A stretch of 64,000 bases of DNA from Chiloscyllium plagiosum (taxonomy: Eukaryota), in contig NC_057718.1 in the NCBI RefSeq assembly GCF_004010195.1, positions 101,218,629 through 101,282,628 of the forward strand. Reading direction: 5' to 3'. The notes under the pieces were generated by a model. It did no database searches and had not been told where the DNA came from. It was given only the letters and a program-made list of their open reading frames with translations. Positions 1 to 64,000 of this stretch are shown one piece after another. The stretch's first letter is position 1; the number at the start of each line of letters is the position of its first letter. A program made the position numbers and the translations under genes.

Positions 1-728
1 GTTCAATCAACAGTGGGACAAGAGCAACGAGGAACACATTGTGGAGCTAGCAGCTTCATTTTTTCCTCATTCCATAACTTTTCGGATCACGTTCAGCTTT
101 TCTCTCTCTGCATCATGGATGCACGTGTGCAAAGGATGGAGGTGCGTTCGTTGTATGTGGTATCAGCCTGGGAAAACTCAGCTCCACCAGCAGCAGGAAG
201 GCAGCCGATCTAATGTGAATTCCCCAGTTTCTGTCTGCAAGCGTGCAGAAAGCTTGGAAAATAGATCCCCACTGCAACCTTTTGCTCTTTCACTGAATAT
301 GGATGATGCTTCAGCCTGAGGGGTGTGGAAACCTGAGAAAGCTGCTGTCCAAGCTGAACAGCAGAATCTGTTCAAATAACTACACCGTATTGTTCTGTGG
401 CAAAATCACAGGGGAGGGGAAGCGCAAGCATACCAAAATGTTTTTCATTTTTGTTCAGCTCTTTTTATAGTGACATAATTTTATTTAAAATGCTCTTTCT
501 TGTCTCGTGAAATAACTTGATTCCACAAGGGAAGGCAGTACAATTTGAGATGGCCGTAGCTTGCCAGAATATGGTTTGTGTGGGAAATGGGACTTGCCAG
601 AGACTTAAAGATTTGGCCGGAGCATGATGGTCTTATTCTTAAGGCTTGTTTCTACCTGGTCACGTCATGACAAACAGTCAGGTCACATGCTGCATTATTC
701 ATGCCCAGGTCAACAGTGATGTGGAGGC

Positions 729-878
729 TGAAAATGTGTTGCTGGAAAAGCGCAGCAGGTCAGGCAGCATCCAAGGAGCAGGATTCTCCTGTTCCTTGGA
801 TGCTGCCTGACCTGCTGCGCTTTTCCAGCAACACATTTTCAGCTCTGATCGCCAGCATCTGCCGTCCTCACTTTCTCC
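729..878 (+). mobile_element. PLE-derived fold-back mini-element, family A (centre deleted, no ribozyme core)
   Basis: Inverted arms ctgaaaatgtgttgctggaaaagcgcagcagg / cctgctgcgcttttccagcaacacattttcag plus an unpaired tail; 15-bp TSD cagtgatgtggaggc at 714-728 and 879-893. Confidence 0.85.
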
Positions 879-893
879 CAGTGATGTGGAGGC

Positions 894-1003
894 GTCCATG
901 TTGGACTCGGGTGGACACAGTCAGAGGTCACACAACACCGGGTTATAGTCCAATGGGATTATTTGAAATCACAATTTCAGAGCGCTGTCCCTTCATCAGG
1001 TGA
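894..1003 (-). mobile_element. PLE terminus, family B, single diverged arm
   Basis: Matches family B arm cacacaacaccgggttatagtccaa...cttcatcaggtg; its end is interrupted by the 729-878 insert. Confidence 0.7.
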
Positions 1004-1575
1004 ACCTGATAGGGGTGTACAAGATGATGAGAGACATAGATAGAGTGTACAAAGTTAAAAATCACGCAACACCAGATTATAGTCCAACAGGTTTATTTGG
1101 AAGCACAAGCTTTCAGAGCGCTGCTCCTTCATCAGATAACTCCACTTGATAAAGGGGCAGCGTTCCGAAAGCTAGTGTTTCCAAATAAACCTGTTGGACT
1201 ATAACCTGGTGTTGTGTGATTTTTAACTTTGTACACCCCAGTCCAACACTGGCACCTCCTCATCATAGATAGAGTGGATAGCCAGAGACTTTTTCATAAG
1301 GTGAAAATGGCTATCATGGAGGGGCATAAGTTTAAGGTGGATTGGAGGAAGGTTTGGGGGAAATGTCAGAGGTAGGTTCTTCACTCAGAGAGTGGTGGGT
1401 GCCTGGAATGCACTGCCTGCAGTGGTAGTAGAGTCAGAGACATTAGGGACATTTAAGTGATTCTTGGATAGGCACATGGAAGTTAGTACAATGGAAGGTA
1501 TGTAGGTTAGTCTGATCTTAGAATAGGATAAAAGTCGACGTAACATCAAAGACCGAACGGTCTTTACTGTTCTAA
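1004..1575 (+). mobile_element. CR1 LINE 3' fragment, interrupted by a family B hairpin
   Basis: gacctgatag..gtacaagat, ttcttcactcagagagtggtgggtgcctggaatgcactgcc (FFTQRVV..WN.LP motif). Confidence 0.85.
1048..1263 (+). mobile_element. PLE-derived fold-back mini-element, family B
   Basis: aaagttaaaaatcac...gtgatttttaacttt inverted arms plus tail gtacaccccagtccaacactggcacctcc; 13-bp TSD catagatagagtg at 1035-1047 and 1264-1276. Confidence 0.9.
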
Positions 1576-1750
1576 AACATTATGATATTGATTTAAAACA
1601 CTCTTAAAAACCCGCAGGTCTACAATGGTATTCCCTGGAAAGAAATGTTCAGAGCAAGGAGAGCACCGAAGAATGATAAATAATGCTTTATTTCACCGGA
1701 TAAATGGCAGAGAAATGGGCCATTCAGCCCAACCCATCTGTGCTAGCCTG

Positions 1751-2739: not shown

Positions 2740-3221
2740 TTCAAGACTGAGACGAGGAGGAATTTCTCTTGTCAGAGGGTCGATTAAAGACTAGAACTGG
2801 TCAAGCAGCATCAGAGGAGCAGGAGAGGCAACATTTCATGTCAGGACCCTTCATCAGGACTGGGGGAGGGTCCTGATCTAAAACATCTACTTTCCTGCTC
2901 CTCTGATGCTGCTTTACCTGCTGTGTTTTTACCAGCTCCACAATTTATTGACTCTGACTCTCCAGCATCTGCAATCTTCACTATCTCTTCTCAGAGGGTT
3001 GAGAGTCTTTTTAATTCCTTGCCACAGAGAGCTGTTGGGGGTTGGGGGGAGGCGCGTAGTCCTAGGCTGAGATAGATAGATTCTCGATCAGTCAGGGAAT
3101 CGAGGGTCATGGGGCAAGGAGGTGGACGTGAGGAATGTTGGATCGATTATGATCCTATTGAATGGCGGAGAAGGTTGGAGGGGCCGAATGGCCTAATCCT
3201 GTTCCTATTTCTTATGGTCTT
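2740..3221 (+). mobile_element. CR1 3' fragment containing a diverged PLE hairpin (2781-2983)
   Basis: gaggaatttctct..cagagggttg, gggccgaatggcctaatcctgttcctatttcttatg; near-TSD tctctt(g/c)tcagagggt at 2765-2780 and 2984-2999. Confidence 0.75.
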
Positions 3222-4299: not shown

Positions 4300-4720
4300 C
4301 AGGAACAAAGTGGAAATGTGGCTAAAGCAGCAAATGCTGGAGATCACAGCATCCATGGAGAGAGAGCAAGCTAAAGTTTCGAGTCTAGATGACTCTTCGT
4401 CAGAGCTGAATTCATGTCACGTTAGCTTACTCTGTCTCCATGGAATCAGAAAGTGTGGCACTGGAAAAGCACAGCAGGAGAGCCGAGGAGTAGGAGAGTC
4501 AACATTTCAGGCATAAGCTCATGCCTGAAACATCGACTCTCCTGCTCCTCTGGTGCTGCCTGACCTGCTGTGCTTTCCCAGCGCCACATGTTCCAACTCT
4601 GACTCTCCAGCATCTGCGGTCCTCACATTCTCCTCTCTCTCCATGGATGCAGCCTGACCAGCTGCGATCTCTAGTATTTGTTGCTTTCAGTACAGATTTC
4701 AGCATCTGCAGTAATCTGCT
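4300..4720. mobile_element. Old PLE hairpin with a nested family A hairpin (4445-4632)
   Basis: Outer arms gcagcaaatgctggagatc / gatctctagtatttgttgc; inner near-TSD ctct(g/c)tctccatgga at 4430-4444 and 4633-4647. Confidence 0.7.
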
Positions 4721-4891
4721 CCTGGAAATGTGGTTGCTGGGTGCATGAATGTATTGTGTGGTTCTGTAAATAAATATTTATAAAAGTGTGTAAAGTTCTG
4801 TTCTTAAACAGCTGGCTTTCTGGAAGTCCATAATGGTGCTGTGTTCTCTGGGTGGACTCCTCTAGTCATAAAGTGGTACATTGCAGAAAGA

Positions 4892-5094
4892 GGAGAAAGT
4901 GAGGACTGCAGATGCTGGAGATCAGAGCTGAAAATGTGTTGCTGGAAAAGCGCAGCAGGTCAGGCAGCATCCAAGGAGCAGGAGAATCGACGTTTCAGGC
5001 ATAAGCTGAAGAAGGGCTTATGCCCGAAACGTCGATTCTCCTGTTCCTTGGATGCTGCCTGACCTGCTGCGCTTTTCCAGCAAAACATTTTCAG
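4892..5094 (-). mobile_element. PLE fold-back mini-element, family A
   Basis: Tail on the left, inverted arms, core ctgaagaagggcttatgcccgaaacgtc; 13-bp TSD cattgcagaaaga at 4879-4891 and 5095-5107. Confidence 0.9.
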
Positions 5095-5119
5095 CATTGC
5101 AGAAAGAAGCCATTCATCC

Positions 5120-9683: not shown

Positions 9684-9917
9684 TAATAAAAACCGCAAGA
9701 GTTGCGGATGCTGTAAACCAGAGACAAAAATAGAAATTGCTGGAAAAGCTCAGCAGGTCTGGCAGCATTTGTGGAGAGGAATCAGAGTTATTGTTTCACA
9801 TTGAGTGACCCTTCTTCAGAACTCAGGAACTGAGGAAGGGTCACTCGACCCAAAATGTTAACTCTGATTTCTCTCCGCAGATGCTGCCCGACCTGCTGAG
9901 CTTCTGTTTCTGTCTTT
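9684..9917 (-). mobile_element. PLE fold-back element, family C
   Basis: ctcagcaggtctggcagca...tgacccttcttcagaac / ctgaggaagggtca...ctgctgag arms; near-TSD aat(a/g)caactt. Confidence 0.8.
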
Positions 9918-10912: not shown

Positions 10913-11689
10913 TGAGAAGGAATGATTACAGGATTCAAGTACAGTTAATTATTTCAAAATGTTCTGTTGAGCAGGTTACAGCAGTGACCACTTCGTCTCT
11001 CTTTGTAGAAACGTAAAAAATAAGAGTGGGGATGGCCATTGTATATGATCGTGGCAGACCACCCAACTCAATTTCCTGTTCCTGCTTTCTTCCCCACATG
11101 CTTTAATTCTTTTTAGCCCTCGGAATTAAATCTGTCTCCTTCTTGACAGTGTTCAATGTTTCGGCGTCAACAGTTTTCTGTGACAGAGAATTCTACAGGC
11201 TGACCTGTCTCTCTAGGTGAAGAAATCTCTCTTATCTCCGTCCCTGAGCAGTTCAGCATAGTGTCACAGAACTATAACAGAACTCTTTTAAAAGAAATGC
11301 AGTAAACATGAAGAAACTGTTGATCTGTTTCTTGTGGTTCCAGATGAGGGGGAGTGTTTGGTAGAGTCCTCCTGGAAATGATGAGAGTGGGTCTTTAATT
11401 ACACTTGCATTGACAGAGAGAAACTCACCTTCACCTCTGATGATGGCTCCTCTGACCCCAGAGCACTCCTTTGGTACTGCATGGAAACATCATGAATTTT
11501 CCACTCAGGTCCTGGAGGTGTTTGAATATACAACTACCAGACTCATCAGGCTATTAGAGTCATAGAGATGTACAGCATGGAAACAGACCCTTCGGTCTAA
11601 CTTGTCCATGCCGACCAGATATCTCAACCCAAACTAGTCCCACCTGTCAGTACCTGGCCCATATCTCTCCAAACCTTTCCTATTCATAT

Positions 11690-12051
11690 TCTGGATTAGT
11701 GGTGCTGGAAGAGCACAGCAGTTCAGGCAGCATCCGAGGAGCAGCAAAATCGACGTTTCGCAAAAGCCCTTCATCAGGAATAAAGCTCTTCCAGCACCAC
11801 TAATCCAAAATCTGGTTTCCAGCATCTGCAGTCGTTGTTTTTACCTTGTTGATTTTAACCCTACTGCGAATCCTCTTGCAAGGATGCCTGCCTTGAAGAA
11901 GTTTTCCTCCTCTCAAGCTTTATTCCTGATGAAGGGCTTTTGCCCGAAACGTCGAGTTTGCTGCTTCTCGGATGCTGCCTGAACTGCTGTGCTCTTCCAG
12001 CACCACTAATCCAAAATCTGGTTTCCAGCATCTGCAGTCATTGTTTTTACC
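11690..12051 (+). mobile_element. PLE composite insert, family A2: inverted arm plus two direct termini
   Basis: 13-bp TSD ttcctattcatat at 11677-11689 and 12052-12064. Confidence 0.9.
11922..11957 (+). ncRNA. Minimal type I hammerhead ribozyme motif (PLE-associated)
   Basis: attc-CTGATGA-a-GGGC tttt GCCC-GAAA-CG-TC-gagt: conserved core, 4-bp stem II, palindromic stem III, 4-bp stem I. Confidence 0.75.
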
Positions 12052-15000
12052 TTCCTATTCATATACCCATCCAGATGCCTTTTAAATGTTGCAATTGTAC
12101 TGTCCTGCACCACTTCCTCTGACAGCTCATTCCATACACGTACCATCCTCTGCGTGAAAAAGTTGACCCTTAGGTCTCTTTTATATCTTTCCAATCTAAC
12201 CCTAAACCTATGCCCTCTAGTTTTGGACTCCCCCACCCCAGGGAAAAGACTTTGTCTATTTATCCCTATCCATGCCCCTCATGATTTTGTAAACCTCTAT
12301 AAGGTCACCCCTCAGCCTCCAACGCTCCAGGGAAAACAGCCCCAGCCTGTTCAGCCTCTCCCTGTAGCTCAGATCCTCCAACCCTGGCAACATCCTTGTA
12401 AATCTTTTCTGAACCCTTTCAAGATTTGCAACATCTTTCCGATAAGAAGAAGACCAGAATTACACGCAGTATTCCAACAGTGGCCTAACCAATGTCCTGT
12501 ACAGCCGCAACATGACCTCCCAACCCCTGTACTCAATGCTCTGACCAACAAAGGAAACATACCAAACTCTTTCTTCACTATCCTATCTACCTGCGACTCC
12601 ACTTTCAAGGAGCTATGAACCTGCACTCCAAGGTCTCTTTGTTCAGCAACACTCCCTTGTGTATTGATACATGCTCGTGACTGACTAGATATGTTATTCA
12701 ATTAGTATATTGGACAGAGATATGACAGTGCGGACCAGAAAGCAATGGTTGTGTTAGCTTTACTCTTAGCCAAGTAATAACTAACTGAATTGTGAATCCA
12801 GTTTTGTAACATTGTATTGGTTTCCAACTCTGTTGGAAATTCAAGTTGAATATCATCTAAAGATGTAGTGTCACAAGAAAAAGTTTATAGTAATTGGTAC
12901 TTTGAGTACAACTAAATGGAGTTGGGCAGATGAGTGTAATTACCACAACATGATGGAATGCAACTGCTTGGCATTGAGTGCTAACCTGGCAGCGTGGTTG
13001 ATTGATCACATGAATTGACTGAGTTCAACTTTTCAATCATGGGTCAGAATTTCCACAGGTTCTTTCAATCCCATTTTACAATTTGTGAGTACAGTCCCTT
13101 GAGAAACTAGAGTTGTTCCATTGTTTTTGACTTTCACTTTTTCTCTGGCTATTTGTCATCATGGCTGAGGTTATCAGGTAGATTGATGGAACACCCCTCA
13201 GAAGTTCTTGAAGATCACTGTGTAAATTGTGATCCATTTAAGAATGGACAAGAACATGTTCATAAGGTAGAGGAGAGCAGCTGATGCTAACTGAACCAGA
13301 TATTCAAGAGCAGGTTTACCCAAGTAAAGCAAAAAGTAGCCTGGCATTTGTATTGAACTATGAAATTCTAAGAAATATAAGTGAAATTAAAGACCCAATC
13401 TCACCTATTACAGGAGGGCTCTTCAATACTCCCCCTAATCCAGAACCACAAGAATTAGATAAACAATTTCTTCAACTTACTGCATTTCTGTAAAAGAGCT
13501 CTGTTCCAGCACTGTGACACTATTCTGAATTGTTCAGGGAAAAAGATGAGGAGAGGTTTCTTCACCCAGAGAGACAAGTCAGCCCTCATGAATGAATGAG
13601 AAGGAATGATTACAGGATTCAAGTACAGTTAATTATTTCAAAATGTTCTGTTGAGCAGGTTACAGCAGTGACCACTTCGTCTCTCTTTGTAGAAACGTAA
13701 AAAATAGGAGTGGGGATGGCCATTGTATATGATCATGGCAGATCACCCAACTCATTTTCCTGTTCCTGCTTCCTCCCCTCCCCCATACCCTTTAATTCCT
13801 TTTAGCCCTCGGAATTAAATCTATCTCCTTCATGACAGTGTTCCATGTTTTGGCCTCAATAGTACAGGCTGACCTGTAGAATTCTCTGTCACAGAAAACT
13901 GTTGAGGGTAAAACACTGAGCACTTTCAAGAAGGAGAGATTCGTGCTGGACAGATTGACTCCTGCTTCAGTAAATGATGAGTAGTAGTTGATACTTTGAG
14001 ATTTATGAGATGGCAGTAAAACTTAAAAGAATGTTTTGTGTGGAAAACCACTCTCGAGTAATATGGGAAATCATCTTGTCATTATAGTGCAGCAAAGAAT
14101 CTTATCACAGGTAAAAGTTCTGAGTAATTATCACTCTCTAATGTTTGTCAGTAGGTATGCACATTAAGTTGCTAGCAATGGAATCTTCCCTGTTCCTGAA
14201 TAACTAGTCTGAGTGCTTGCAGTATGCCCCACTGATCCAGGAAGACATATTCAAGTCCCTATTTGTTTCCATTGCTTTTACTCACTGCATGCATTAATGA
14301 TGGTTGACCACATGGTGCCTTTAATATTCAATGGGGCTAATTTTATATCCTTGTACTCTATGCCAGATCATTTCAAGTGTAACACAAAAAGGATCCTGGT
14401 AAGTAGCTATTAATGTCATGCACAAAATATGTTCTCTGAAGCTCCGATTGCCAGCAGGTCCCAGGAAATAATAGCGTCCTCGGTTATTCTTCATAAGATC
14501 ATCTCTCACGTTGCATTGTTCAGTTGTTTAATCACTATAATGTGATTGGAATTAGAAAAGTAAGCATGTTTGAAATCAAAATGGTTAGCAGTGCTCTCTT
14601 CCCTTTGCATCCTGTTCAACCTGTTTCTTATTTTACATCATGTTGTCATGGTCAATTCAAAGTTAACATCGCTGCAACATGAAGCATAATTCTTTCAGCG
14701 TAAATCCAGCAATGTAAATCTCTGGGTGCTTTTTTTTGGATTGATGAGAAACATTGCTGCAAAAGGAGTAAAAGGGATGTGTACATTAGCAGTTCCTGGA
14801 TTTCTTCAATCTCTTGCTTCTAATGTAACCAGAGTCGTAGTGTGGTACAGAATGGAAATAGAGCCTTCTGTCGAACTCATCCATGCCAACCAGATATCCT
14901 AAATTAATCTAGACCCATTTGCCAGCACTTGGCCTACATTCCTCAAAACCCTTTCTATTCATTGACCCATCCAGATGCCTTTTAAATGTTGTAATTGTAC

Positions 15001-15488: not shown

Positions 15489-15794
15489 ATGATTTTATTT
15501 CCATGCCCCCTCATGATTTTATAAACCTCTGTAAAGTCACCCCTCAGCCTCCGACACTCCAGGGAAAACAGCACCAGCCTATTCAGCCTCTCCCTAATCG
15601 TCAAACCCTCCAACCTTGCCAACATCCTTGTGATAAGTCTTTTCTGGAGTTTCACACCATCCTTCCTATAGCACGGAGACTAGTATCGAATGCAGTACTC
15701 CAAAGGTGGCCTAACTAATGTACTGTACAACCGTAGTATAACCTCCCAACTCCTGTACTCAATACACTGACAAATAAAGGCAAGTATACCAAAT

Positions 15795-16013
15795 CTGAAA
15801 CTTTATTGCTGGAACAGCACAGCAGGTCAGGCAGCATCTAGGGAACAGAAGATTCGACGTTTCGGGCACATGCCCTTCTGCATTCGTGAAGAAGGGCATG
15901 TGCCCGAAACGTCGAATCTTCTGTTCCCTAGATGCTGCCTGACCTGCTGTGCTGTTCCAGCAATAAAGTTTCAGCTTTGATCTCCAGCGTCTGCAGACCT
16001 CACTTTCTCCTTG
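15795..16013 (+). mobile_element. PLE fold-back mini-element, family A3
   Basis: Near-perfect arms ctgaaactttattgctgg / ccagcaataaagtttcag; 13-bp TSD aagtataccaaat at 15782-15794 and 16014-16026. Confidence 0.9.
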
Positions 16014-16630
16014 AAGTATACCAAATGCCTTCTTCACTATCCTATCTACTTCTGACTCCACTTTCCTGGACTTTCGCGCAAACAGCTAAAAATGTGACAA
16101 TTGTCTTTTAAGTCTATATTCTGATAAGAAAATAACATGAGAAAGGTGTGCTTTCTTTCACTGGAGCTAACTATGTGAATGAACGTGAATACTATAGCAG
16201 TGAGCCTCTGCAGTTAAACATTTTTTTGTTATTCGTTCATGGGATGAGGGCATCGCTGGCTGGCCCAGCATTTATTACCCATCCCTAATTGCTCTTGAGA
16301 AGGTGATGGTGAGCTGTCGTCTTGAACTGCTGTAGTTCATTTACTGTCTGTAGATCTACGATGCTATTAGAAGGGGATATTCTTGTTTAGTAAGTAGGAG
16401 CTCACTCTTCGCTTTTGTTTCATTCGCCAAGAATGGCCAGCAGTATGTTCAAGGAAGAGATTGACAAACTTTTAAAGTTTAAAGGAGTGAAGGGGGTATG
16501 GGGAGAAAATAGGGATTTCATGGCATTTATTGGATGATCACATTGAAGGACCGAATGACCTAATCCTAGTTTCAGTATTTCTAAGTATATTATCTTCCAG
16601 GCTCTAAGGAAACAATAATTAAAATAAATA

Positions 16631-17443: not shown

Positions 17444-17799
17444 TATTTCACGCATTGTAGATATAGCTAAGAAACTACCTAGGCACTAAGTTGTGATGGT
17501 GTTAGACTGACTGGATTCCTCTTCAAAGAATTGACACTGATTCAGTGACAAATAGCCTCATTGCACACAGTCCATTATGTATTTCTGTTGTAAATGCTTA
17601 GCCAGAGGTGGTAAAATATTCAGGGTTCGTCATGGGCCACTGCATCCCACAAGATGTAAATAAAAGCATCTTCAAACACTGTAATCAAATTCTGCTCATT
17701 CCTGCAAGTTAGTTCACACGGGAAAATATTAATGAATAATATACAGTTACTTTCTAATCAACCTGTTCAGAGATATAATTACACACCTCTGGAGTAGGT

Positions 17800-19920: not shown

Positions 19921-20013
19921 TTCAGCTGAAATTTGCCTCAGGTTCTTTAAGGTCTGATCAAAATGATTGTAGCTAATTTACTGGGCTAAAATACTTAATA
20001 CGTATATGAATTA

Positions 20014-26870: not shown

Positions 26871-26898
26871 TTTCAATACTTGGTAGCGAGTTGTAAAG

Positions 26899-46300: not shown

Positions 46301-47017
46301 AACGGAGAACAGGAGAGAGCTCAGATTGATGCTGTCACGGGCAACGGCTTTCGACATGCTAATTAATCCACAGCTGCAAATGTGTGTGCACCCCTGATTA
46401 ATACCTGGCTGTTACATGTTCAATCCATCACTTAGTTGTCCGCCGTCTCCAAATCTTTTCTGATGAACTGACAGTTTCAGATTACTAAAGCTCACCGATC
46501 TTCTGGCGATCAAGTAAATAACAGTATTTACGCTATAACCGTGTGACATTAAAATACTGCTTTCCTTCAAGGGCTCAACTATTCAAAACTTCAAAGGGGA
46601 AACCCTGCGCAAAAATAAAATTGCTTCTGTATTTTCCAATGAGTTCCAAAAGTGTTTTACTAAAAGCAGAAGACTGTAGATGCTGGAAGTCTGAAACAAG
46701 ATCTGAAAAATGCTGGAATGAAATCTCAGGCAACCTCGGTATCGAGGCAGAGATGGTATTGCAGCTTTGTGACCTTTCATCAGAACACAGGTTCTGCCTA
46801 AAATGGCTGAGCTTTCTCCATTTGTTTGTACTGGAAGGAACTCTGGAGCAGCCTGATGTCAGGAAAAGCGCAATAGAAATACAAGTTCATCCGTTCAGAA
46901 CTATTACCCATGTGAACTAAGGGAAAGGCTGTGAGTGCAAGGGAACTGTTAGGGAGAGAGTAGATGAGTCACAACTCTGTCTCAAGGTCGCTGCTGCATC
47001 AAAACTTGTGGATCACA

Positions 47018-47336
47018 CAATCCCTACAGTGTGGAAGCAAACCATTCAGTCCACGCTGCCCCTCTGAAGAGTATTCCACCCAGAACCATCTCCCCCACCC
47101 CCATCCCTGCATTTCCTATGGCTAACCCACATCCCTGGATACTACGGCCAATTTAGCAAGACCAATCCACCCTGACCTGCGCATCTTTGGACTGTGGGAG
47201 GAAACCGGAGCACCCGGAGAAAACCCACGCAGACACGGGGAGAATGTGCAAACTCCACACAGGCAGTCACCCGAGGCTGGAATCGAGCCCAGGACCCTGG
47301 TGTTGTGAGGCAGTAGTGTTAACTACTGAGCCACCA
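47018..47336 (-). mobile_element. HE1-type SINE
   Basis: V-domain and tRNA head. Confidence 0.85.
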
Positions 47337-49039
47337 GGCCTCTTCATGGAGTCCCAGCCCCCACTTTGGGAGACTGGTGTCCCTAATACCCATAGTGCTG
47401 AGATGGCCTAGAGAGACTGTAGCTGGAATGGAATTGTTACAGTTCTATCTGCAAGTTTGATCGTGCCATTACACCTGACATTCTCCACCCCAGAGGGATA
47501 TGGAAATTCAGTCATTCACTATGTATAAGACTGGGGTCAATAGATCCTAATTACAAATGGAAAGCATCAATGGACAAAGAGGTAGTGCATTAATGTGGTG
47601 TTGAGGTGTAGGATTAGCCATTGAACAGCCACGCAGCCTTAAAGACATGAAGGAGAGTCACTGGACCTGAAACGTTAACTGTTTCTCTCTCCACAGCTGT
47701 GTGACTTTTTCCAGCTTTTTCTTGTTCTTTTCAGATCTTCAGCCCCCACAGTTCTTCGTTCTGTTAGAGGGCCGTGTGACCTTCTGCTGCTCCTACTTCT
47801 GATATTTTTATGTGAACACAAAATAACATCAAATTTCTGCCTTGAAATCAGGGTCATATCTTTGTTTGACTTTAGCTTAAGTGTGCATTTGATAGACTCC
47901 AGGATACTCAAACCCCCTGAATCTATTGCTGATTGTGATTAGAGTGTCACCATTGAAACATATATTGATGATTTCCATTCCATTGACATAAAATAATTTC
48001 TTTTAAAAATGATAAAACTTCCTTTTTGCTTTCAAATATTGACTCCCAATGATTCCAGTTTTTATCTCTCAATTTTAATTATTTATGCAGGAATCACCTC
48101 CTCGGTTGAAAATTGTAAAGAGATTCATCAGGAATGAACCTATTCTTCTTGTGCACATAGAATTCCTTTCAGTAAAGCTTTAGTGTCTTCTATTTATTTT
48201 TCTCATGTATAGTCACTTAAAGGAATGCTTCTTCAGACTGTCCAGTCCTAGGGATTACTGTAACACTCATTTAACTTAGTAAATCTTTAGTTCGGAGATC
48301 AGCTCAAGGCGATAAGCAATCCTGTTAGTTTGGGATGGGAGGGGTGAAAGGTTAGCTCAACTCACTGGCCTGACGGTGAATGGAGGCAGACAGATGGGAA
48401 TGAGGGGAAATATTTGGGTCTTTGCTAAACTTACATTTTTGAAATACTGTCATACAGAACAAACAAAAGTCCCTGCTTTGTCAGGGAAAGACTGTTTGTT
48501 AGCTCATTCCTTTCCTGGCACCACCTAACGATCCTCACAGTGCCAGCTGAGACGTTGTGAGCTTGCCCGCAAGCCTCATTTTGAACTTTGAACCCTGAGA
48601 AAGATTGTGCGAACGGAGAACCAGGCGGTCAGGTCGGGACGAGACCACACACAAGCATCAAATCGTTTGCAGCAGGGCAGCCGCTGGCGGACTGAAGTTG
48701 TTTTAGTTTCTCATAACATTTTCTGGATGGTTCTTGTTGTCCCTTGCTGCTTTTAAAGATGCCTCAGTGTAGTTTGTGATTAAGTGATCACGCCTACCTA
48801 GATGTTCACATAATAATTCAAGCCACTGCATTTTGGGTGCAAGCTCAGAGAACAGGAGCTTTCCCACAATATTGAAATGGGAAGGTGATTCATCATTAAA
48901 ATGTAGAACGAGAATTTGTGTTTATTGTCACTTGTATTCAGTTATAGAAGTACAGTGGAAAATGTACAAAGTCACCATTCCTGGTATCTTAGCTACAAAG
49001 ACACCTTAGAACAAAGTCTTAGGTACAAAATCGAAAAAT

Positions 49040-49828: not shown

Positions 49829-50632
49829 GCTGAGTCCCTCAGCGTCTACCACCCTCCGGACTCAGCAGCCGCTTCTCTGCCAACTGTCAAAGTCCCACTG
49901 GCTCCAGCCGCTGCCACACCCCAGACTCCTACACCATCGCCGCTGCTGCTACCTTCACAACTGAGCTCTCTCCAGAAGGCAAGGAAAAGAAACGATGAAA
50001 CTAAACAAAAAGACAAGAATAGATGAGAAAAACAAAGGAAAAGTGGGCGGAATGCTGCCTATTTTGCCACTATCTCAATTTAATTAAAGGTTAGGACCAG
50101 CAGTAGGCCATTCAGCCCCTCAGGCCTGCTTCACCATTCTATAATACCATGGCCAATCTGCACCAGGCCTCAACACCTCTTCTGTGCCAGCACATCAAGG
50201 CCCTCAAGGTGAGCGGTTTTTGAAAATCCACCAGAAAGAAGAATCTTTCCTGAGGTGAAATTGTAAAGGAGAATGTTGCTTCGGGCTGTGGGGATAGAGT
50301 CTCTCAGCAATTCTCCTCCCTAGGTATTTTCAATAAAACCTGTTCAGATATTCAAACATTATGATATACCTCTGGAGCAGGTGGGATCTGAACCCGACTC
50401 TTCTGGTGCAGAGGTAGTGTATCCAGTTTTAGTCTGTTAATAGGAAGGATATTGTTAAGATGGAGAGGGTTCAGAAGAGATTTACCAGGATGTTGTTGGG
50501 TATGGAAGGTTTGAATTATAAAGAAAAGCCAGATAGGCTGAGACTTAGAGTCATAGAGATGTACAACATGGAAATGACCCTTCGGTCCAACTTGTCCATG
50601 TCAACCAGATATCCCAACCCAATCTAGTCCCA

Positions 50633-50851
50633 AGTTACAAATCACACAACACCAGGTTATAGTCCAACAGGTTTAATTGGAAGCACTAGCTTTCGGAGCG
50701 ACGCTCCTTCATCAGGTGGTTCATCACAACCACCTGATGAAGGAGCGGTGCTCTGAAACCTAGTGCTTCCAAATAAACCTGTTGGACTATAACCTGGTGT
50801 TGTGTGATTTTTAACTTTGTCCACCCCAGTCCAACACTGGCACCTCCAAAT
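50633..50851 (+). mobile_element. PLE fold-back mini-element, family B
   Basis: Near-TSD caatctag(t/a)ccca at 50620-50632 and 50852-50864; near-perfect arms. Confidence 0.9.
50684..50718 (-). ncRNA. Minimal type I hammerhead ribozyme motif, family B
   Basis: Minus strand reads cac-CTGATGA-a-GGAGC-gtc-GCTCC-GAAA-GC-TA-gtg: stem I cac/gtg, 5-bp stem II, palindromic AGCT stem III. Confidence 0.8.
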
Positions 50852-51859
50852 CAATCTAGACCCACCTGCCAGCAGTTAGCCCATATCCCTCCAAACCCAC
50901 TCCTGTTCATTTACCCATCCAGATGCCTTTTAAATGTTGCAATTGTACTTGCTTTCCTTTTGCTGGAGTGTAGGAGATTGAGAGGTGATCTTATAGAAGT
51001 TTATGAAATCCTGAGGGGTATAGATAGAGTTATTGGTAGTCGTCCTTTCCCCAGGATGGGTGAGTTCAAGTTGAGGGGCCACACTTTTAAATTGAGAGGA
51101 GAAAGATTTTAAAAAGACATGAGGGGAAATTCTTTACACAGAGAGTCGTTCATGTTTGGAATGACCTTCCTGAGGAAGTGGTGTATGTGGGTACAATTAT
51201 AAAGTCAATGAGACACTTAGTACACGAATAGGAAAGGTTTGTAGAGGTATGGGCCAGGAGCTGGGAGATGGGACAAGTTTAATTTAGGATTATGTTCGGC
51301 ATGGACTAGTTGGATCAAAGGGTTTGTTTCGTGCTGTATTACTCTGACTCTAATAAAACATAAAAATCATGTGCCAAATTTCTGTGAACAGGTAGCACAC
51401 CAGCTTTGTACCATTGTCTCAATTAAACAATCTGACCTCCAGTGGTCCTTGAGTGGATACCTTGCAGAATGATGATAAAACAGAGTCTTAAAATAAACGA
51501 TCAGTTCAGAATGAGGGAGATAAATCTTAACTGTAAATACATTTTAAAAGATCTGAAAATCTGAAAAGCCCAAAAAAGCAATCAAAGCTAACACTCCACT
51601 CTCCACTGTGAGGATGCTGCGGAGTCAGAGGTGCTGCTTTCTCTTATGACATTTTAAACTGAGACTCAGTCTGTCCTTTCGGGTGAACATAAATGATTCC
51701 AGTTTGCAAAGAAGAGTTCTCCCAGCTCCCCCTGGCAAATATTTAACCCCTGATCAATATCATAAAAAAAAATTATTTGGACATTATCATGCATCTGCCT
51801 GTGAGAATGTAAATTAGCTGTTGCAATTCCTGCTCTGGAGTGGTTGCAAAGTACCAAGA

Positions 51860-52945: not shown

Positions 52946-54084
52946 TGTATAAGTGTCATCCTGTTTCCTTATCCTCGTATTAGTCGAAGCAAACACTCAA
53001 AGACACAGTATGGGTTTACCTTCTTCATCTTATTCCACATCCTGGAGGGAGAGAGAACGATCGCCCATGTGCACAGAGACATGAGCACTCGGTCTTCTCT
53101 CGAACAGCAGATTCTTAAGGAATTATTCTGCCAAATGACGATTCTTTTTTTTAAATTTCAAAAATATACTTTATTCATAAAATAATTTGATGGTCTGTAC
53201 AGTTGGTCATGCCATACATACGTAAACATTTACATACAGAGATCAGAATTTATCATTTTTTTATTTCAAAAATACACTTTATTCATAACTCCTTCACCCT
53301 ATCCATGATACTATATTGACTGTGAAACCCTTCAGAATATCTGATGGCTGTGTGAGGTACCATTAAAGTTCCACTTTTGAGTTGTTAAGACTATCATTAA
53401 TTTTATTTTATTTTTCTCATTTTTGGTTTGAAACTATGAGTTGTAGTTGAGAATTGAACTTTGAACAGCAGCTAGTTAAAGAAAAGAAGGAACAAAAGTT
53501 TGATGTGTGCTGTTGGTATCTGCCCTGGAAAGATAACACAGGTTATGTACTTCTCTATGAACACTGTCGACCAACCAGCACTGAGATGTTGTTATGCTCA
53601 GCTGGTTGGGTGTTGAATTGACCAATCAAGCGAGGATTTGTGCTAGTCAGCCAACCACAGAGAATGTTAAAAAAGAAACAATAAAGGAACTGGCTCTGAC
53701 TGGCTTTTTGGACAGGAGGTAGAGTTGCTTTGGAAGCTGCAGGGTTGAGATGTTTGGTTTAGTTCTCTCCAGTTATTCTTTAGTCCGTGTTGACCCTGTG
53801 AAGAACATCCAGTCCCTGTAACCCCGCATTTCCCATGGCTAGCCTGCACATCTCTGGCAAATGGGACTAGATTAGTTTAGGATATCTGGTCAGCATGGAC
53901 AAGATGGACCAAAAGATCTATTTCCGTGCTGTACATCTCTGTGACTCTTGTTATAAGTTTGAGTTTTATTGTTGCTAACATGTTATTCATCATCTCTAAA
54001 CTACTTCTGAATATCTCTATCCTTCCTCTAACTTCTCTGTCATATCTATCATCTTAGGTTATTCTCTGTCCTAAACAGACAAGC

Positions 54085-54205
54085 TAGGAGAAGGCTCACA
54101 AGCCTCATTCCTTCCTGATGAAGGGCTTATTCCCGAGAGGTCGATTCTCCTGCTCCTCGGATGCTGCCTGACCTGCTATGCTTTACCAGCATCACACTCT
54201 CAACT
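54085..54205 (+). mobile_element. PLE terminus insert, family A
   Basis: cctgatgaagggcttattcccgag; near-TSD ctaaa(c/t)agacaagc at 54071-54084 and 54206-54219. Confidence 0.75.
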
Positions 54206-54592
54206 CTAAATAGACAAGCGTACTGTTTAGTTCCAGTAAAACACCATCCGCTTCAATTAACATTCTAGTTTCTTCTCATGCATGACCTTCTGTGTATGTC
54301 CTTTTGGTGTTCATATTTATCGTGTAAGGTCATTTGTTTCACCTAAATAGTTGACGTCACACAGTTTATTGGATGAAGACTGGGAGTTCTACACTAGCCA
54401 TCCTTGGGAGTGGATATATATTACATAGCGTCCGGTAACTATGCCTGGTCATCCATTTTTCTTCTACCCCTTCATGGGTTGTGGGCGTCATTGGTTGGGC
54501 CAGCATTTAATCCCCATCCCTCGACAATGCAGGGATGAGGTAGGGAATCTGTGGAATACATGGGCTGTCAAGGTTGGGTCGTTAAATATATC

Positions 54593-54786
54593 GGGTCAGG
54601 CAGCATCCAGGGAACAGGAGATTCGACGTTTCGGGCACAGGCCCTTCTTTGGGCACAGGCCCTGAAGGAGGGCCTGTGCTCGAAACGTCGAATCTCCTGT
54701 TCCCTGGATGCTGCCTGACCTGCTGTGCTGTTCCAGCAATAAAGTTTCAACTTTGATCTCCAGCATCTGCAGACCTCACTTTCTCC
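54593..54786 (+). mobile_element. PLE fold-back mini-element, family A3, inside a CR1 tail
   Basis: 14-bp TSD tcgttaaatatatc at 54579-54592 and 54787-54800. Confidence 0.9.
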
Positions 54787-56479
54787 TCGTTAAATATATC
54801 CAAGGCTGAGCCAGACCAGACTTTTAATCAGCAAGGGAATCAAGGCAGGAAAGTGGATTTGAGGATTATCAGATTGACCATGATTTACTCGACTGGTGGC
54901 ACAGTCCCGATGGGCTGAATGGCCTACCTCTCCTCTGTGTCTTATAATTGCCCTTGAACTGAGTCGTTCCTTCTGCCATTCAGAGTAGAGCCTAGTGTTG
55001 TTGGTTTGGAGTCACATATAGATCAGATTAAGTATAGAATGCTGATTGAAAGAACACTAATGAGCTTCAGTTATTGTTCCCATGCAATAAAGTATTTTGT
55101 TAACTAAGACAAGTTTAAATTTGCTGCTCTTTATCTTAAAACTGTGATCTCTCATTCTGGATTACATGAGGAAACATCTCTCCAGGTCTGCTTTGTCACC
55201 GGTGGTCTATCTTGCTTCTGGTACATCACCAAAGTCTCGCGTCTTGCAGAGTTTCTCATAATCATTGGCCAAAAGGTGCGATCAGATCTCCCTTTCTCGG
55301 GCCACGGGACCAGTTGTCGGTTTTGCCCTTGGAAATGACTCCGGCAAAACCAACAAATATAAATGCAAAGGAAAAGGAGGGAACTCTGTGGGATGTGGGC
55401 ATGGCAAGGATGTGGATCAACAAAACCACATTCATGGATTTCCACAGCCTCCCTCTTTGTACTGACAAGTCATGTTATGTGATCCAACATAATGTATAAG
55501 TTGAGTTCAGGGTATTGTATCACCTGAGTGTCTTTAAATTGGCAGTGAATGTTATTTCTTACACCACTGCAGCCCGATAGCATATCTGCGGTGACATCGT
55601 GTCTAGTGTAAAGTCAATTCAAAACAAAGAGGCACTGTAACTTCCCCAAACCTGTGTTCACCTGAGGATTAATCATTGTCTCAAACCAGTTAGTCAACTG
55701 GTTTTCATGTTCATTCCTATTTTCTCACGTAAACTTTCTCTAAACTTTCAGGTTTTTTTCTGGACTTTTGGAAAGCTTTCATTCCCCATCCCGAATCCTA
55801 AGAAAAATAAGGCCATTCGGCCCAACAATGCTTCGTTGGTGTTGGGGTTTCAGATGGATCTCCTTCCACTATTTTTCCACCAAATTCCTCCTGTTCATTT
55901 CCTCCTCATACGATTTGTCCCACGATCCCTCGTGGCACCTAACTTGACCTTGTCACCTCTCTCTGGGTAAAAAGATTTCTCCTGCATTCCCTGTTGGATT
56001 TATGAGTGACTTTCCCATACTTATGGCCGCTATTTCTGCTCTCACCTGCAAATGAAAATGTCTCTCTGTCGACCTGAAAGACCTCTTTTGTAACTTTGCA
56101 GAGCTCAATGAGAGGATCTCTCCATCTTCACTTTTCGAGGTAATGATAAATAGTGTTTGCATTTACATTTAAAACACCTTGCTGGAATGTTTTGCATTCT
56201 GTTGTGTATTTTGTCGTATCTATGCCTGCTTCCATACTGCTTTGCCATTAATGGCACTGCACTGTTTCGACTTCTGTCAGTGATGATGCTGTGCAAGTGT
56301 CTGAGTACAGTGTTTTTGTCCAAACGACAAAAGCAAATTGGAAATATTCATTTCCGTTTGTGAACTTCTTGGCTGGATAAAAGTCTGGCAGACCTTCTTG
56401 GTCAGGCTAGACTGTTTCTGCCCTCATCCTATCAAACGTGTTATAACCAAAAAGACATGGGTACTGGTACTCCCATGCT

Positions 56480-57682: not shown

Positions 57683-57779
57683 ATCACGAGAGCTTTGCAA
57701 AATGCAGAGAAAACAATCAGAGAACATTTGCTTGTTTGATGTTCAATATTTGTACTTGGGACAATGTTAAAGGTACTAT

Positions 57780-58694
57780 ACCTGTACGACTATGGATGAA
57801 TGGACACCGCACAACAGTCATCAGGCAGGAGTGTTCCCTCCCAGTTGGAGAACACGTCAGTGGTCCTGAACATTTGACCCTGGACCTTCGGATGGCCATG
57901 CTCCAAGGCGGACTGCGGGACAAGCAACAACGCAGAGTGGCCGAGCAGAGGCTGATAGCCAAGTTCAGTACCCATGGGGATGGCCTCAACCTGGACCTTG
58001 GGTTCATGTCACACTACCGGTGACCCCACTGCACAATACATTCTCTCTCTATCTCACACTCTCTCTCTCACACACATGCACACACAAACACTCTGACAAA
58101 TTCACACACCCCCACAGACCCTCCCTCAGACACAAGCTCTCTCTTATATACATGCACATACACCATCCGCACTCACACCAACACATGCACCCTCTCACAC
58201 ATACCCCATTACACTCATACACACACTTAATCAAGCTTGCGCGCGCATGCACACACACACACACACACTCTTATCAGGTGCATTCACATCCACACAAACA
58301 CTCACATGCACACTCAATATGCCGCCCCTACATCCACACACATATAAGCTTATAGGGTGAATTTGATTTTGCAGAATTACATTTTATTTTGCTCAAAAAC
58401 TGCATGAATCCATGTAAAACTCTGTAAAACTATACAGAGTTTGTCAGTCTGACATAACATTGGGACACAGACAGTCTTCACACCTACTGTTTAAAAAGCT
58501 GAGCTATCTTGAGAATCATATCTAAGATTGTTTACTGTATCACATCTCCCTGACACTGGACTCCTTTGGCTATAAATTCTGTGAGCGTGATCTTAACCTC
58601 CACAACCACCTAATGAAGGAGCAGCGCTCCGAAAGCTAGTGCTTTCAATTAAACCTGTTGGACTGTAATCTGGTGTTGTATGATTTTTAACTTT
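57780..58694 (+). mobile_element. 5'-truncated PLE (family B): GIY-YIG C-terminus, CA-rich 3' UTR and terminus with hammerhead motif
   Basis: RLWMNGHR..LPVGEHVSGPEH..RRVAEQRLIAKFSTHGDGLNLDLGFMSHY; cac-ctaatga-a-ggagcagcgctcc-gaaa-gc-ta-gtg at ~58607-58641. Confidence 0.9.
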
Positions 58695-60905: not shown

Positions 60906-61699
60906 GTGCCTTGCTAGGTCATATTCTGTCCACTTTTCTCTCCTACAGTGTGGACTTCTGAGGTCCCTGCATGGCTGTGAGTCCCAGAACAGAGGGTGAT
61001 ACAGGGAAGCTGTTGAGCACACAGATCGGTGTGCATGGAACCTCAGAGAGGCTGCATGACCACGTATCTTAGAGAGAACTTAGAAATTTGAGGGTTAACC
61101 ATCTTGCTGTAGATCTGGAGTTGCATGTTGTGCAGCCTGTGTGCAATACAGCTGATTTCCAACCCCTGAAGGGCATTAATGTACCAAATGCAGTTTCTAA
61201 AGGGGGGTAATCTGATAGGTTTATGGTTATTATGAATTATACTAGATTTAATAGTTTTAAATTCTCTGAGCTGCCATGGTGGAATTTGAATTCATGACTC
61301 TGAAATATTGTGTTTGGGTCTTTGGGTTTCTGAATATCATTACCACTCAGCTGCCTTCCCCCAATGTTCCCTTTGATTATCATCACCATCTCTGTTTGGC
61401 TTTCTCCCTGCTTAGCTGATTTTGACTTCCACACATCACTGCACTCCCTGTGTCCAACTCTATGATGAGTGGATTCAATACCCTGGAAGAACAGAAATTT
61501 CCTCCAACTAAATATAGTCAACAATCTTGGCCTCAAACTCCATTTTCTAGCCACTAATTCTGCTCCCATCCCCCGGCAACATTTGGAGGCTGAATAAGTG
61601 ACAACTTTACTTGAGACAACCTTCTGACCAAATTTCTGTTGTTTTGGTTAGTTCAGTGGGCTGGACAGCTGGTTTGCAGTGCAGATTGATGCCAACAGC

Positions 61700-61915
61700 T
61701 GAAAATGTGTTGCTGGAAAAGCGCAGCAGGTCAGGCAGCATCCAAGGAGCAGGAGAATCGACGTTTCGGGCATGAGCCCTTCTTCAGGAAGGGCTCATGC
61801 CCAAAACGTTGATTCTCCTGTTCCTTGGATGCTGCCTGACCTGCTGCGCTTTTCCAGCAACACATTTTCAGCTCTGATCTCCAGCATCTGCAGTCCTCAT
61901 TTTCACCTCGAAGAC
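61700..61915 (+). mobile_element. PLE fold-back mini-element, family A, inserted in a SINE head
   Basis: 13-bp TSD tgatgccaacagc at 61687-61699 and 61916-61928; intact hammerhead core on minus strand ~61756-61790. Confidence 0.9.
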
Positions 61916-63177
61916 TGATGCCAACAGCATGGGTTCCAATTCCCATGATGGTCCCACCTTCTCAATCCTGCCCCTTGCCTGAGATATGGTGACCCTCAGA
62001 TTATTCTCAGCACCAGTTCTCTCTCTGTAAGAATAGAGTGGGGTTATGGCACCTTTACCATCAATAAGGCTACCTATTTCTAACTCCAGAGCATCTCTCC
62101 ATTCTGCTCCTTTTGCAGTTTTAACTGTTGCAATGAACCTCCATCTTTATTTTCCTCTAAATCATTAGGCTTTCATAACCTTGAGATCACCAATTTTTTG
62201 TTCACTGCGTCCCAAGTTGCATTTAATGCAGTTCACTTATTAACCTCAGATGTGCTCCCTTACACTGACTCCTCATTATACACTATGCTGATTTGAAAAT
62301 CCTCTTCCCTCTCTTGAAATCCCTCTGTATCCTCACCCACTCCCTATCTCTGTCATCTCCTCCAGCCTTACAAACCTCAGAGATCTCTGCATGCAAACAC
62401 CCAGGTCTTAATGCAGCTCCTCCACCAAGAACAATTCTAATGGCTTATATTCCCAAATACTGTACTTTCTCAGTAAGAGAGTTAAGTTGCTATTGGATCC
62501 CTAGTGATCTGAGTAGTGGTTGCTTCACTACAGTAACCATTTTAGATTTTCACCACTATCTTTCCAGTTCGGAAAATGGGTTGTCATGTTTGTTTTGGAA
62601 TTATTCAACATCCTGTCTGTTTGATGAACTCATTTTAAAATCGGATTTGACCCAGAACTGTCTTCACTATGTTTAATTTTCCACTTTTTTTTTGACTCAA
62701 CGTTTACGTCGTAATGAGGAAAAATGTCACAAAACTTGATCTTGGGGCGTGAGCTCAGGATCAATAGCTGGAAGCGCCTGTTGACTTATGGCATATCGCG
62801 TACTCTCTGATTATTTTCCTGCTCAGGCACAATTTATCACGATCAATTTTATTAGGAATCAAGGACTGCAAGTCATTGCATGTTCACTTTCATTCACACC
62901 CCTTTCTTTTACAAAGCCTCTGTTAATAGTTGTGGTGTATCTGTTGGAGGTTAATGAAAGATTCTGTTTACCTGCCCCACTGCTCATTGTAACAATTACT
63001 GCAACCAATTACAAACACAGCCAATTAATATCAGTCATCATCAATTTACACAGATATAATCAAGCTGCCTAACAAAAGATGTCATAGGCCTTGATAGATT
63101 TAAGGTTCACAAGTTTTTAATGACAATCTGGTAATTTCATGATCATTCAATGTGGGTCAAAGTACACTTTTGGCATC

Positions 63178-63369
63178 ATGATTTGGAGATGCTGATGTTG
63201 GACTGGGCTGTACAAAGTTAAAAATCACACGACACCAGGTTATAGTCCTGCAGAATGAATTGGAAGCACTAGCTCCTTCACAACCACCTTATGAAGGAGC
63301 AGCGCTCCAAAAGCTGGTGCTTTCAATTAAAGGTGTTGGACTATAACGTGGTGTTGTGTGATTTTTTTA
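63178..63369 (-). mobile_element. PLE fold-back mini-element, family B
   Basis: 12-bp TSD acttttggcatc at 63166-63177 and 63370-63381. Confidence 0.85.
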
Positions 63370-63845
63370 ACTTTTGGCATCCTCAGTGTTACTCAGTTTG
63401 TGTGAAAGTGTGCTATCATTTTCAAAGTGGGAACACAGCTCTCTGTATCTGTCCCTATCTAGAGCAGGTTTAGTTGACCTGCCACTAAATTGTAAATTTT
63501 CTTTGTTCTGCTTTTCTGGACAGTTGCATGATTAGGTGGGGAGCAGAGAGATACAGATCCTTAGAAATTGGGCTATAGGTTTAGACAGTGGATTTGGATC
63601 GGCACAGGCTTGGAGGGCCGAAGAGCCTGTGCCTGGGATGTAAAATTTCTTTGTTCTTTCTTTGTTCTTTATTTAAATACCCTCAAGCAATGTTACATCA
63701 CTAGTCCCCTGTGGGATCTTTTGGCTGTAGCTTTTGGTATTAATTTAAGATTTTGCCATCAATGCTAATTGACATTAATGTGAATGAGTTACTAAATCCA
63801 AGTCTTGAGAATCACAGATACAGGGCCACTTGACCCATTGGGTCA

Positions 63846-64000
63846 GATTCTGGATCAGTGGTGCTGGAAGAGCACAGCAATTCAGGCAGCATCCGACGAG
63901 CAGCAAAATCGACGTTTCGGGCAAAAGCCCTTCATCAGGAATAAAGGCAGAGAGCCTGAAGCGTGGAGAGATAAGCGAGAGGAGGGTGGGGGTGGTGAGA
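63846..64000 (-). mobile_element. PLE family A2 terminus with intact hammerhead core (63907-63942), continuing beyond the window
   Basis: Minus strand ttattc-CTGATGA-a-GGGC-tttt-GCCC-GAAACGTC; 3' UTR-like sequence runs to the window edge. Confidence 0.85.

What the first reader, a model, noticed from the sequence alone, without database searches (positions are those of the whole stretch)
714..63945. Abundant fold-back, hammerhead-bearing PLE mini-elements with 9-16 bp TSDs
Seen: more than 20 inserts of about 120-360 bp, mostly hairpins of two inverted PLE termini. About 16 have exact or 1-mismatch TSDs, most often 13 bp (e.g. 1035/1264, 4879/5095, 11677/12052, 15782/16014, 26884/27123, 54579/54787, 61687/61916, 63166/63370). 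Families A and B are physically linked to GIY-YIG coding fragments (29026-29420 via 30435-30792; 57780-58694). Established: PLEs carry minimal hammerheads and often form inverted terminal structures. Inference: these look like MITEs but are retro-insertions. When transcribed in either direction they would give long dsRNA stems, and some have a ribozyme core on both strands. At this density they could shape pre-mRNA editing, cleavage or small-RNA output.
Basis: partly seen in the sequence, partly recalled or inferred. Interest (0 to 1): 0.72.

Follow-up and report, generated by a model that had tools for sequence, protein, structure and literature searches.

The report
Paired-end Penelope insertion scars in shark
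This shark-type DNA carries about 30 short leftovers of Penelope-like jumping genes, most laid down as back-to-back pairs of the element's end in a pattern already described for this class; they were likely made when the enzyme copied inward from both cut DNA strands at once, and no sign of a host function was found.

Summary
Observation confirmed. 31 loci carry Penelope-like element (PLE) ends, about 11% of the window; 19 are two-armed and 18 have 9-16 bp duplications, 8 of them 13 bp. A related species shows the empty site of one insertion with a single duplication copy. The ends belong to RT/GIY-YIG elements. Inverted end, one-sided 30-40 bp tail and captured DNA are published PLE anatomy, and this scan has reported them before elsewhere in this genome. 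No two hairpins share a centre, so this is not one propagating MITE-like family. What may be new: outer ends sit on two fixed sites, inner ends cluster just 5' of the hammerhead (21 of 37), and arms of four young insertions differ at family-polymorphic sites. That favours priming from both nicked strands, at least sometimes on two RNAs, over fold-back copying. The functional claim is unsupported: the hairpin buries the ribozyme core, only 2 of 19 hairpins have a core on both strands, and one shallow RNA run gave no editing excess or cleavage pile-up.

The parts
714..893 (+). Family A1 hairpin, 15-bp duplication (714/879), tail on right; right arm starts at the hammerhead cut position; inserted at the tail end of an older family B copy
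884..1004 (-). Older family B end, single arm, no duplication found
1035..1276 (+). Family B hairpin, 13-bp duplication, 6 nt inserted at the centre
2765..2999 (+). Old A-like hairpin, 16-bp duplication with 1 mismatch
4345..4720 (+). Old C-like hairpin interrupted by an A1-like hairpin (4430-4647, 15-bp duplication with 1 mismatch, no spacer at the centre)
4879..5107 (-). Family A1 hairpin, 13-bp duplication, tail on left
9685..9910 (-). Family C hairpin, tail on left, short duplicated stretch at the centre, no clear flanking duplication
11677..12064 (+). Family A3 three-part insertion, 13-bp duplication; the middle piece runs about 70 nt past the tail end
15782..16026 (+). Family A2 hairpin, 13-bp duplication, arms identical over 84 columns
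17786..18048 (+). Family B lopsided pair with a 113-nt unrelated spacer, 14-bp duplication with 1 mismatch
20005..20163 (+). Family B lopsided hairpin, 9-bp exact duplication
24185..24362 (-). Decayed family C hairpin
26884..27137 (+). Family A3 hairpin, 15-bp duplication, core on both strands; its tail end is also present in organism B
   Evidence: (X10 record 9)
28294..28432 (+). Family A3 single arm with tail, 11-bp duplication
29013..30805 (+). Composite family A insertion, 13-bp duplication: inverted coding/UTR arm (29026-29425), about 1 kb captured from another locus ending in a 21-nt A1 stub (to 30435), direct arm with hammerhead and tail (30436-30792); absent in organism B
   Evidence: (X10 records 12, 14)
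31113..31357 (-). Family C hairpin, blunt centre; its left part is also present in organism B
35533..35718 (+). Diverged single arm with tail, 13-bp duplication
43185..43390 (+). Decayed family C pair
50620..50864 (+). Family B hairpin, 13-bp duplication with 1 mismatch, core on both strands
54071..54219 (+). A1-like single arm ending at the tail-less site, 14-bp duplication with 1 mismatch
54579..54800 (+). Family A2 hairpin, 14-bp duplication, 11-nt repeated stretch at the centre
57757..58694 (+). Family B: endonuclease C-terminal coding fragment, about 580-nt spacer, hammerhead-bearing end; no duplication found
61687..61928 (+). Family A1 hairpin, 13-bp duplication; the inverted arm reaches further in than the tail arm
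63166..63381 (-). Family B hairpin, 12-bp duplication, tail on left, blunt centre
63850..64000 (-). Family A3 end running off the window edge
23660..47736 (.). Five older single-arm family C fragments without duplications (23660, 28156, 33095, 45579, 47648)

Best explanation
These are dead, 5'-truncated end fragments of several shark Penelope-like retroelement families, each likely written at insertion by reverse transcription primed from both nicked strands of the target and then joined head to head. Shown: PLE identity, variable duplications, an empty site, two fixed outer end sites 30-39 nt apart, unique centres. Inferred mechanism: the RT/GIY-YIG protein nicks both strands about 13 nt apart. 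One 3' end primes at the tail site (about +100 from the hammerhead cut position in family A, +80 to +89 in B, +105 in C) and the other at the tail-less site (+62, +55, +73). Both cDNAs grow toward the RNA 5' end and mostly stop just 5' of the hammerhead core, either at a transcript start or at a strong stop. They are joined through 0-3 nt of homology, slippage copies or a borrowed template, and gap filling makes the duplication. At least sometimes the two cDNAs would come from different RNA molecules. The hammerhead is a passenger of the parent element.
For: Identity: coding fragments match shark RT/endonuclease proteins. Empty site with one duplication copy in organism B (X10 record 12). Extra length on one arm is 30-39 nt in 8 of 12 well-aligned pairs (others 10, 21, 45, 65; 2 of 14 dropped for poor alignment). 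The Anolis PLE protein cuts and extends both strands, starts at two internal sites that define the tail, and is predicted to be a dimer (PMC11167929). The template runs on past the tail at 11690. None of 18 mapped centres is shared; they show 1-3 nt overlap, blunt joins or 3-11 nt inserts, and 2 blunt joins plus 1 spacer-less palindrome do not fit a self-primed loop. At 61687 the tail-less arm reaches further in than the tail arm. All 3 young A1 hairpins have arms differing at the same non-CpG, family-polymorphic site, with the tail on the T arm twice and the C arm once. In the composite, the overlapping arms differ at 0 of the first 78 and 11 of the last 89 columns (P about 0.0007 for that clustering), although the insertion is absent from a species only 3-4% diverged. 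Tail-less ends share 16 nt of target homology over 12 loci against 4.0 expected (P 0.0005). 21 of 37 inner ends lie at -24 to -42 (22 by script, one over-extended).
Against: The 15795 arms are identical over 84 columns and share two variants seen in no other window copy, which fits copying from one template or later conversion. The 61687 centre is also an exact self-priming loop. No plain two-armed hairpin has two full tails, so the two primings cannot be independent draws. The discordance evidence rests on four loci and was found after looking; the A1 site was not checked against reads. The composite's inverted arm and 54593's left arm do not start at a fixed site. Microhomology is equally expected from end joining. 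The Anolis study found no target homology at priming and is from another PLE clade. No RNA starts were seen at the clustered inner end. An earlier unchecked note (e1-9860681) argues that arms are not independent.
Confidence: 0.58

Rival explanations
1. Same PLE origin, but one cDNA folds back at the small palindrome around the hammerhead core and copies itself (self-priming, as proposed in PMC3846280), with the tail set by endonuclease resolution.
For: Both arms usually end at nearly the same place. The 15795 arms are identical and share private variants. The 727 and 61687 centres can be drawn as 2-3 bp primed loops. No plain hairpin has two full tails.
Against: Same-site arm discordance in 3 of 3 A1 hairpins and 11 clustered differences in the composite. 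Blunt and spacer-less centres (31113, 63178, 4449). At 61687 the loop belongs to the tail-less arm, whose copy could not supply the tail.
Confidence: 0.27
2. The hairpins are one or a few propagating non-autonomous elements that are transcribed and re-inserted whole, with later deletions at the centre.
For: The three A1 left arms are identical over 54 columns and share the same mismatch with their partners. The composite carries a stub of another A1 end with its flank, so existing loci can be copied.
Against: No shared centre among 18. The tail sits on the T arm twice and the C arm once, which one master cannot give. At least three unrelated families show the same layout.
Confidence: 0.08
3. 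The hairpins have been retained because they act in the host through dsRNA editing, ribozyme cleavage or small RNAs.
For: Arms fold into stems of up to about -186 kcal/mol for plain hairpins. Family-level reads occur on both strands in polyA RNA. The 26899 hairpin is shared by two species.
Against: Arms decay with age, from 0% to 30% mismatch. The core is buried in the stem in both printed folds; only 8 of 19 hairpins keep any strict core. RNA A>G/T>C places 100 versus C>T/G>A 129, like the DNA runs (70/86, 71/97, 87/136); no start or end pile-up; 12 of 30 bins had no RNA reads.
Confidence: 0.05
4. They are MITEs of a DNA transposon.
For: Short, non-coding, inverted and very abundant.
Against: Duplications vary from 9 to 16 bp, the inverted repeat is not terminal, the ends join RT/endonuclease coding DNA in the sense direction, and single arms also carry duplications.
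Confidence: 0.01

Closest known systems
Canonical endonuclease-bearing PLE insertion unit: inverted pLTR plus one-sided tail (Arkhipova et al. 2013, PMC3846280, passages read; Craig et al. 2021, PMC8557442, passages read)
   Same: Inverted 5'-truncated copy, 30-40 bp tail on one side, variable duplication, head-to-head layout, host DNA captured between ends within a duplication.
   Different: Here most units are only the two ends (120-360 bp), at about one locus per 2 kb; the modal duplication is 13 bp (8-10 bp in the rotifer passages). Those papers invoke self-priming or endonuclease resolution, whereas the arm differences here point to two primed cDNAs.
Anolis Poseidon element PAc (Frangieh et al. 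2024, PMC11167929; parts 1-2 of 4, the main text, read; supplements not read)
   Same: Two internal reverse-transcription start sites defining the tail, both strands cut and extended, hammerhead upstream of the start sites and not needed for insertion.
   Different: A word search of that text finds no head-to-head or duplication discussion. It reports no target homology at priming, while 0-3 nt is seen here. Shark relatives of these fragments carry the extra CX2-5CxxC motif of Neptune/Nematis, which Poseidon lacks.
Minimal hammerheads of metazoan PLEs (Cervera and De la Pena 2014, PMC4209133; parts 1-2 of 4 read)
   Same: Type I core, extra nucleotide before helix II, G-C closing pair, palindromic helix III positions; dual motifs on opposite strands 100-700 bp apart were noted there.
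   Different: Sharks are not named in the parts read; here the two motifs are complementary arms that bury each other.
Non-LTR retrozymes (bioRxiv 10.64898/2026.07.22.740005; part 1 of 5 and passages read; supplements closed)
   Same: Short non-coding PLE-derived sequences with type I hammerheads, reported also in one chondrichthyan.
   Different: Retrozymes are head-to-tail tandems with a motif in each unit; these are head-to-head pairs or single arms.
L1 twin priming (recalled; seen only in search listings)
   Same: Both target strands prime cDNA synthesis and the products are joined by microhomology.
   Different: In L1 the inverted part is a non-overlapping upstream piece of the same RNA; here the two parts overlap and start at two fixed sites.

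Membership tests
Endonuclease-bearing Penelope-like element | Single ORF with RT and C-terminal GIY-YIG endonuclease | tested here: met
   For the parent families only: window fragments match the C-termini of RT-bearing proteins. No full ORF lies in the window, Pfam does not hit the fragments themselves, and families C, A2 and A3 have no coding link here.
Endonuclease-bearing Penelope-like element | Inverted terminal copy with a one-sided 30-40 bp tail | tested here: met
   8 of 12 well-aligned pairs have 30-39 nt.
Endonuclease-bearing Penelope-like element | Variable-length target-site duplication | tested here: met
   9-16 bp at 18 of 31 loci; one empty site.
Endonuclease-bearing Penelope-like element | Minimal hammerhead motif in the terminal repeat, in the sense of the ORF | tested here: met
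   12 strict cores versus 0 in 30 shuffles; sense orientation at 30436-30792 and 57757-58694. Cleavage activity not testable.
Neptune/Nematis clades | CX2-5CxxC motif upstream of GIY-YIG and RT phylogeny | tested here: inconclusive
   The motif is visible in shark homologues P0002, P0003, P0005, P0007, P0008 (definition); that region is not in the window and no tree was built.
MITE / DNA transposon | Inverted repeats at both termini and a fixed duplication length | tested here: not met
   The tail lies outside the repeat; lengths 9-16 bp.
Propagating non-autonomous hairpin family | Shared internal junction among copies | tested here: not met
   0 shared centres among 18; genome-wide count not possible, no genome held.
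Non-LTR retrozyme | Head-to-tail tandem units each with a hammerhead | tested here: not met
   No such array among 22 tandem-repeat rows; one X5 contig joint from 30751 back to 30692 hints at tandems elsewhere.

The most novel reading that the evidence does not exclude
Penelope-like elements integrate by paired priming: a dimer nicks both strands 13 nt apart and copies two separate RNAs inward from two dedicated start sites, and priming in the 5' terminal repeat of the transcript yields short run-off cDNAs that become these mini-hairpins. Shark genomes would then hold a very large fossil record of single reactions, enough to settle how PLE inverted ends form from sequence alone.
Probability: 0.33. 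Interest if true: 0.65.

Novelty: new member of a known kind. Interest (0 to 1): 0.34.

Why it matters
The insertion anatomy is known, so the finding as stated is mostly ordinary. Its value is practical and mechanistic. About a tenth of this window is short PLE ends that look like MITEs or microRNA hairpins (weak sub-threshold miRNA matches) and can be misannotated. How PLE inverted ends form is described as unresolved in PMC8557442. The two fixed outer ends, the clustered inner ends and the arm differences give a cheap genome-scale test between two-template priming and fold-back copying. My searches found no paper describing these shark hairpins or paired priming for PLEs, but the library lacks most subscription papers and Repbase/Dfam could not be searched.

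Tried and rejected
No genome is held, so no genome-wide count. A 23-nt family A motif gave 4 chance bacterial-looking matches in metagenomes and 0 in viral contigs. Rfam gave only sub-threshold miRNA-type hits and no hammerhead. Pfam missed both coding fragments. Pfam on 300 of 301 ORFs of 62 aa or more (low-complexity ORFs and ORFs containing N filtered out) hit only a lipase/esterase-like ORF at 7976-8449 and an RT piece at 21427-21786, both read as LINE remnants; short exons could be missed. No RNA holder was listed for 600-5400. Junction set by ribozyme cleavage: one of 37 inner ends (727 right arm) starts at the cut position and one X5 joint returns to it, which is within chance for a 50-nt range, so rejected as a general rule. 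A-to-I editing as the source of the A1 mismatch was rejected because the tail is on opposite alleles at different loci. A single master hairpin was rejected for the same reason. Joint tables were truncated (3,986 rows hidden), so they could not serve as a junction census. Read depth was not used as a copy number. No structure or complex prediction was run.
Full report
Check of the observation. Self-comparison of the window found 31 loci made of PLE-type ends, about 6.8 kb or 11% of called bases. Nineteen have two opposed arms. Exact flanking repeats of 11 bp or more occur at 12 of 31 loci versus 3 of 930 scrambled flank pairings; with one mismatch, 13 bp or more occur at 17 of 31 versus 4 of 930. 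My list of 18 duplications runs from 9 to 16 bp with 8 at 13 bp. Twelve strict minimal-hammerhead cores are present, none in 30 shuffles. They have the features listed by Cervera and De la Pena (PMC4209133), though 4 of the 12 have lost the palindrome and 2 close helix II with G-U.

What the ends belong to. The fragment at 29201-29422(-) matches shark proteins at up to 84% and aligns with the C-terminus of an 806-aa protein that carries the RT family PF00078 and PF01541 (the latter recalled as GIY-YIG). The fragment at 57757-58020(+) matches a second shark family at up to 76%. In both cases the hammerhead-bearing end follows in the sense direction. Homologues show the extra cysteine motif that PMC8557442 assigns to Neptune and Nematis; I built no tree. 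The best named protein hits are from sharks.

Anatomy. Counting from the hammerhead cut position, outer ends fall on two sites per family: about +62 and +97 to +102 in A, +55 and +79 to +89 in B, +73 and +105 to +107 in C. In a plain hairpin one arm has the longer end; the difference is 30-39 nt in 8 of 12 well-aligned pairs. This is the published tail (PMC3846280, PMC8557442), which PMC11167929 traced to two internal start sites of reverse transcription. RNA reads from other loci leave the reference at the same two places (212 reads at 30789, 141 at 30749). At 11690 a middle piece runs about 70 nt past the tail, so the template extended further. Inner ends cluster: 21 of 37 lie at -24 to -42, just 5' of the core, in all three families. 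No two of the 18 mapped centres are the same; they show 1-3 nt overlaps, blunt joins, 3-11 nt inserts (three of them repeats of the left arm's last bases) or larger foreign pieces.

The composite insertion. A 13-bp repeat at 29013 and 30793 brackets 1,767 bp. In a run labelled as another organism, one 531-nt contig joins 29012 directly to 30793, an empty site with one copy of the repeat (X10 record 12). A different 3,768-nt contig of that run matches the filler 29438-30435, including the 21-nt A1 stub, at single-copy-like depth and continues into other sequence (record 14). The filler is therefore a copy of another locus lying next to another A1 end. Capture between PLE ends is published (PMC3846280) and has been noted repeatedly by this scan. 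The same run holds the tail end of hairpin 26899 and part of 31113, so those predate the split; unique flanks differ by 3-4% (records 9, 12, 14).

Mechanism. The Anolis protein cuts and extends both strands and is predicted to be a dimer. I infer that each nick primes a cDNA, one at each start site, and that the two are joined head to head. Four observations favour this over fold-back. First, all three young A1 hairpins have arms that differ at the same non-CpG site that is polymorphic in the family (12 versus 8 among other copies), with the tail on either allele. Second, the composite's overlapping arms differ at 0 of 78 then 11 of 89 columns, which neutral decay after insertion would not give. 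Third, blunt and spacer-less centres exist, and at 61687 the tail-less arm reaches further in. Fourth, tail-less ends sit at a fixed site and share more target homology than chance (16 nt versus 4.0 over 12 loci). Against: the 15795 arms are identical and share two private variants; no plain hairpin has two full tails, so the primings are coordinated, possibly on one RNA; the sample is small and the pattern was found after looking; two arms start off-site; and an earlier unchecked note reports non-independent arms. Why the inner ends cluster is not shown: a transcript start in the 5' repeat or a strong stop would both do, and the RNA lay shows no starts there.

Function. Hairpin stems are very stable and, in the two folds printed, pair the hammerhead core inside the stem. 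Only 8 of 19 hairpins keep any strict core and 2 have one on both strands. Minimal hammerheads showed no monomer activity and low dimer activity in vitro, and the Anolis motif was dispensable for insertion. In one polyA single-cell run (about 2 in 100 of the run read, on 26400-31600 only), 3,573 reads were laid, 95% running on into other loci; 12 of 30 bins had no reads; there was no start/end pile-up; and A>G plus T>C places (100) did not exceed C>T plus G>A (129), as in the three DNA runs. This is a coarse, family-level test without matched DNA and says nothing on small RNA. No host-gene domain was found in 300 of 301 ORFs. About 234,000-240,000 contigs per DNA run were laid on that 5.2-kb stretch, which also holds other repeats; this shows very high abundance but is not a copy number.

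Verdict. Real, PLE-derived, and of a described kind; this scan has reported the same pattern in other windows of this genome. The part worth a specialist's time is the evidence that the two arms are separately primed, which a genome-wide census could test. Papers seen: PMC11167929 (main text, parts 1-2 of 4, plus word search), PMC4209133 (parts 1-2 of 4), PMC3846280, PMC8557442 and PMC8455134 (passages), bioRxiv 10.64898/2026.07.22.740005 (part 1 of 5 and passages). Supplements were not read; Fig. S1-S2 of PMC11167929 and the retrozyme preprint's tables may bear on the claims about novelty.

Noticed in passing
window 39320-39570 and 39987-40240: A separate long inverted repeat (182-nt core at 98%, extending further with an indel) around a 416-nt spacer; not PLE-like, no flanking duplication found near the core ends.
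   Followed up: partly
window 4345-4720 and 714-1004: Two PLE hairpins inserted into or at the tail end of older PLE ends, suggesting some preference for PLE termini as targets.
   Followed up: partly
window 11850-11910: About 70 nt of sequence continuing past the family A3 tail, containing an ATG; possibly the element's 5' leader or ORF start.
   Followed up: no
window 17874-17986: 113-nt spacer between family B arms with no other copy in the window; possibly another captured piece.
   Followed up: partly
window 30743-30753 and 30780-30795: Both family A outer end sites follow pyrimidine tracts ending in or near AG, resembling splice acceptors; PLEs are known to keep introns.
   Followed up: no
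X5 joint 30751 to 30692: A contig joint returning from +60 to the first base after the hammerhead cut, depth 282: a possible tandem array elsewhere in the genome whose unit starts at the cut site.
   Followed up: no
window 7976-8881 and 21427-21786: LINE-type remnants: a lipase/esterase-like ORF and an RT fragment.
   Followed up: no
window 49635-49828: 22-bp minisatellite, 9 copies.
   Followed up: no
window about 20640-21380 and 52620-52740: Two runs of N, 853 bases in all.
   Followed up: no
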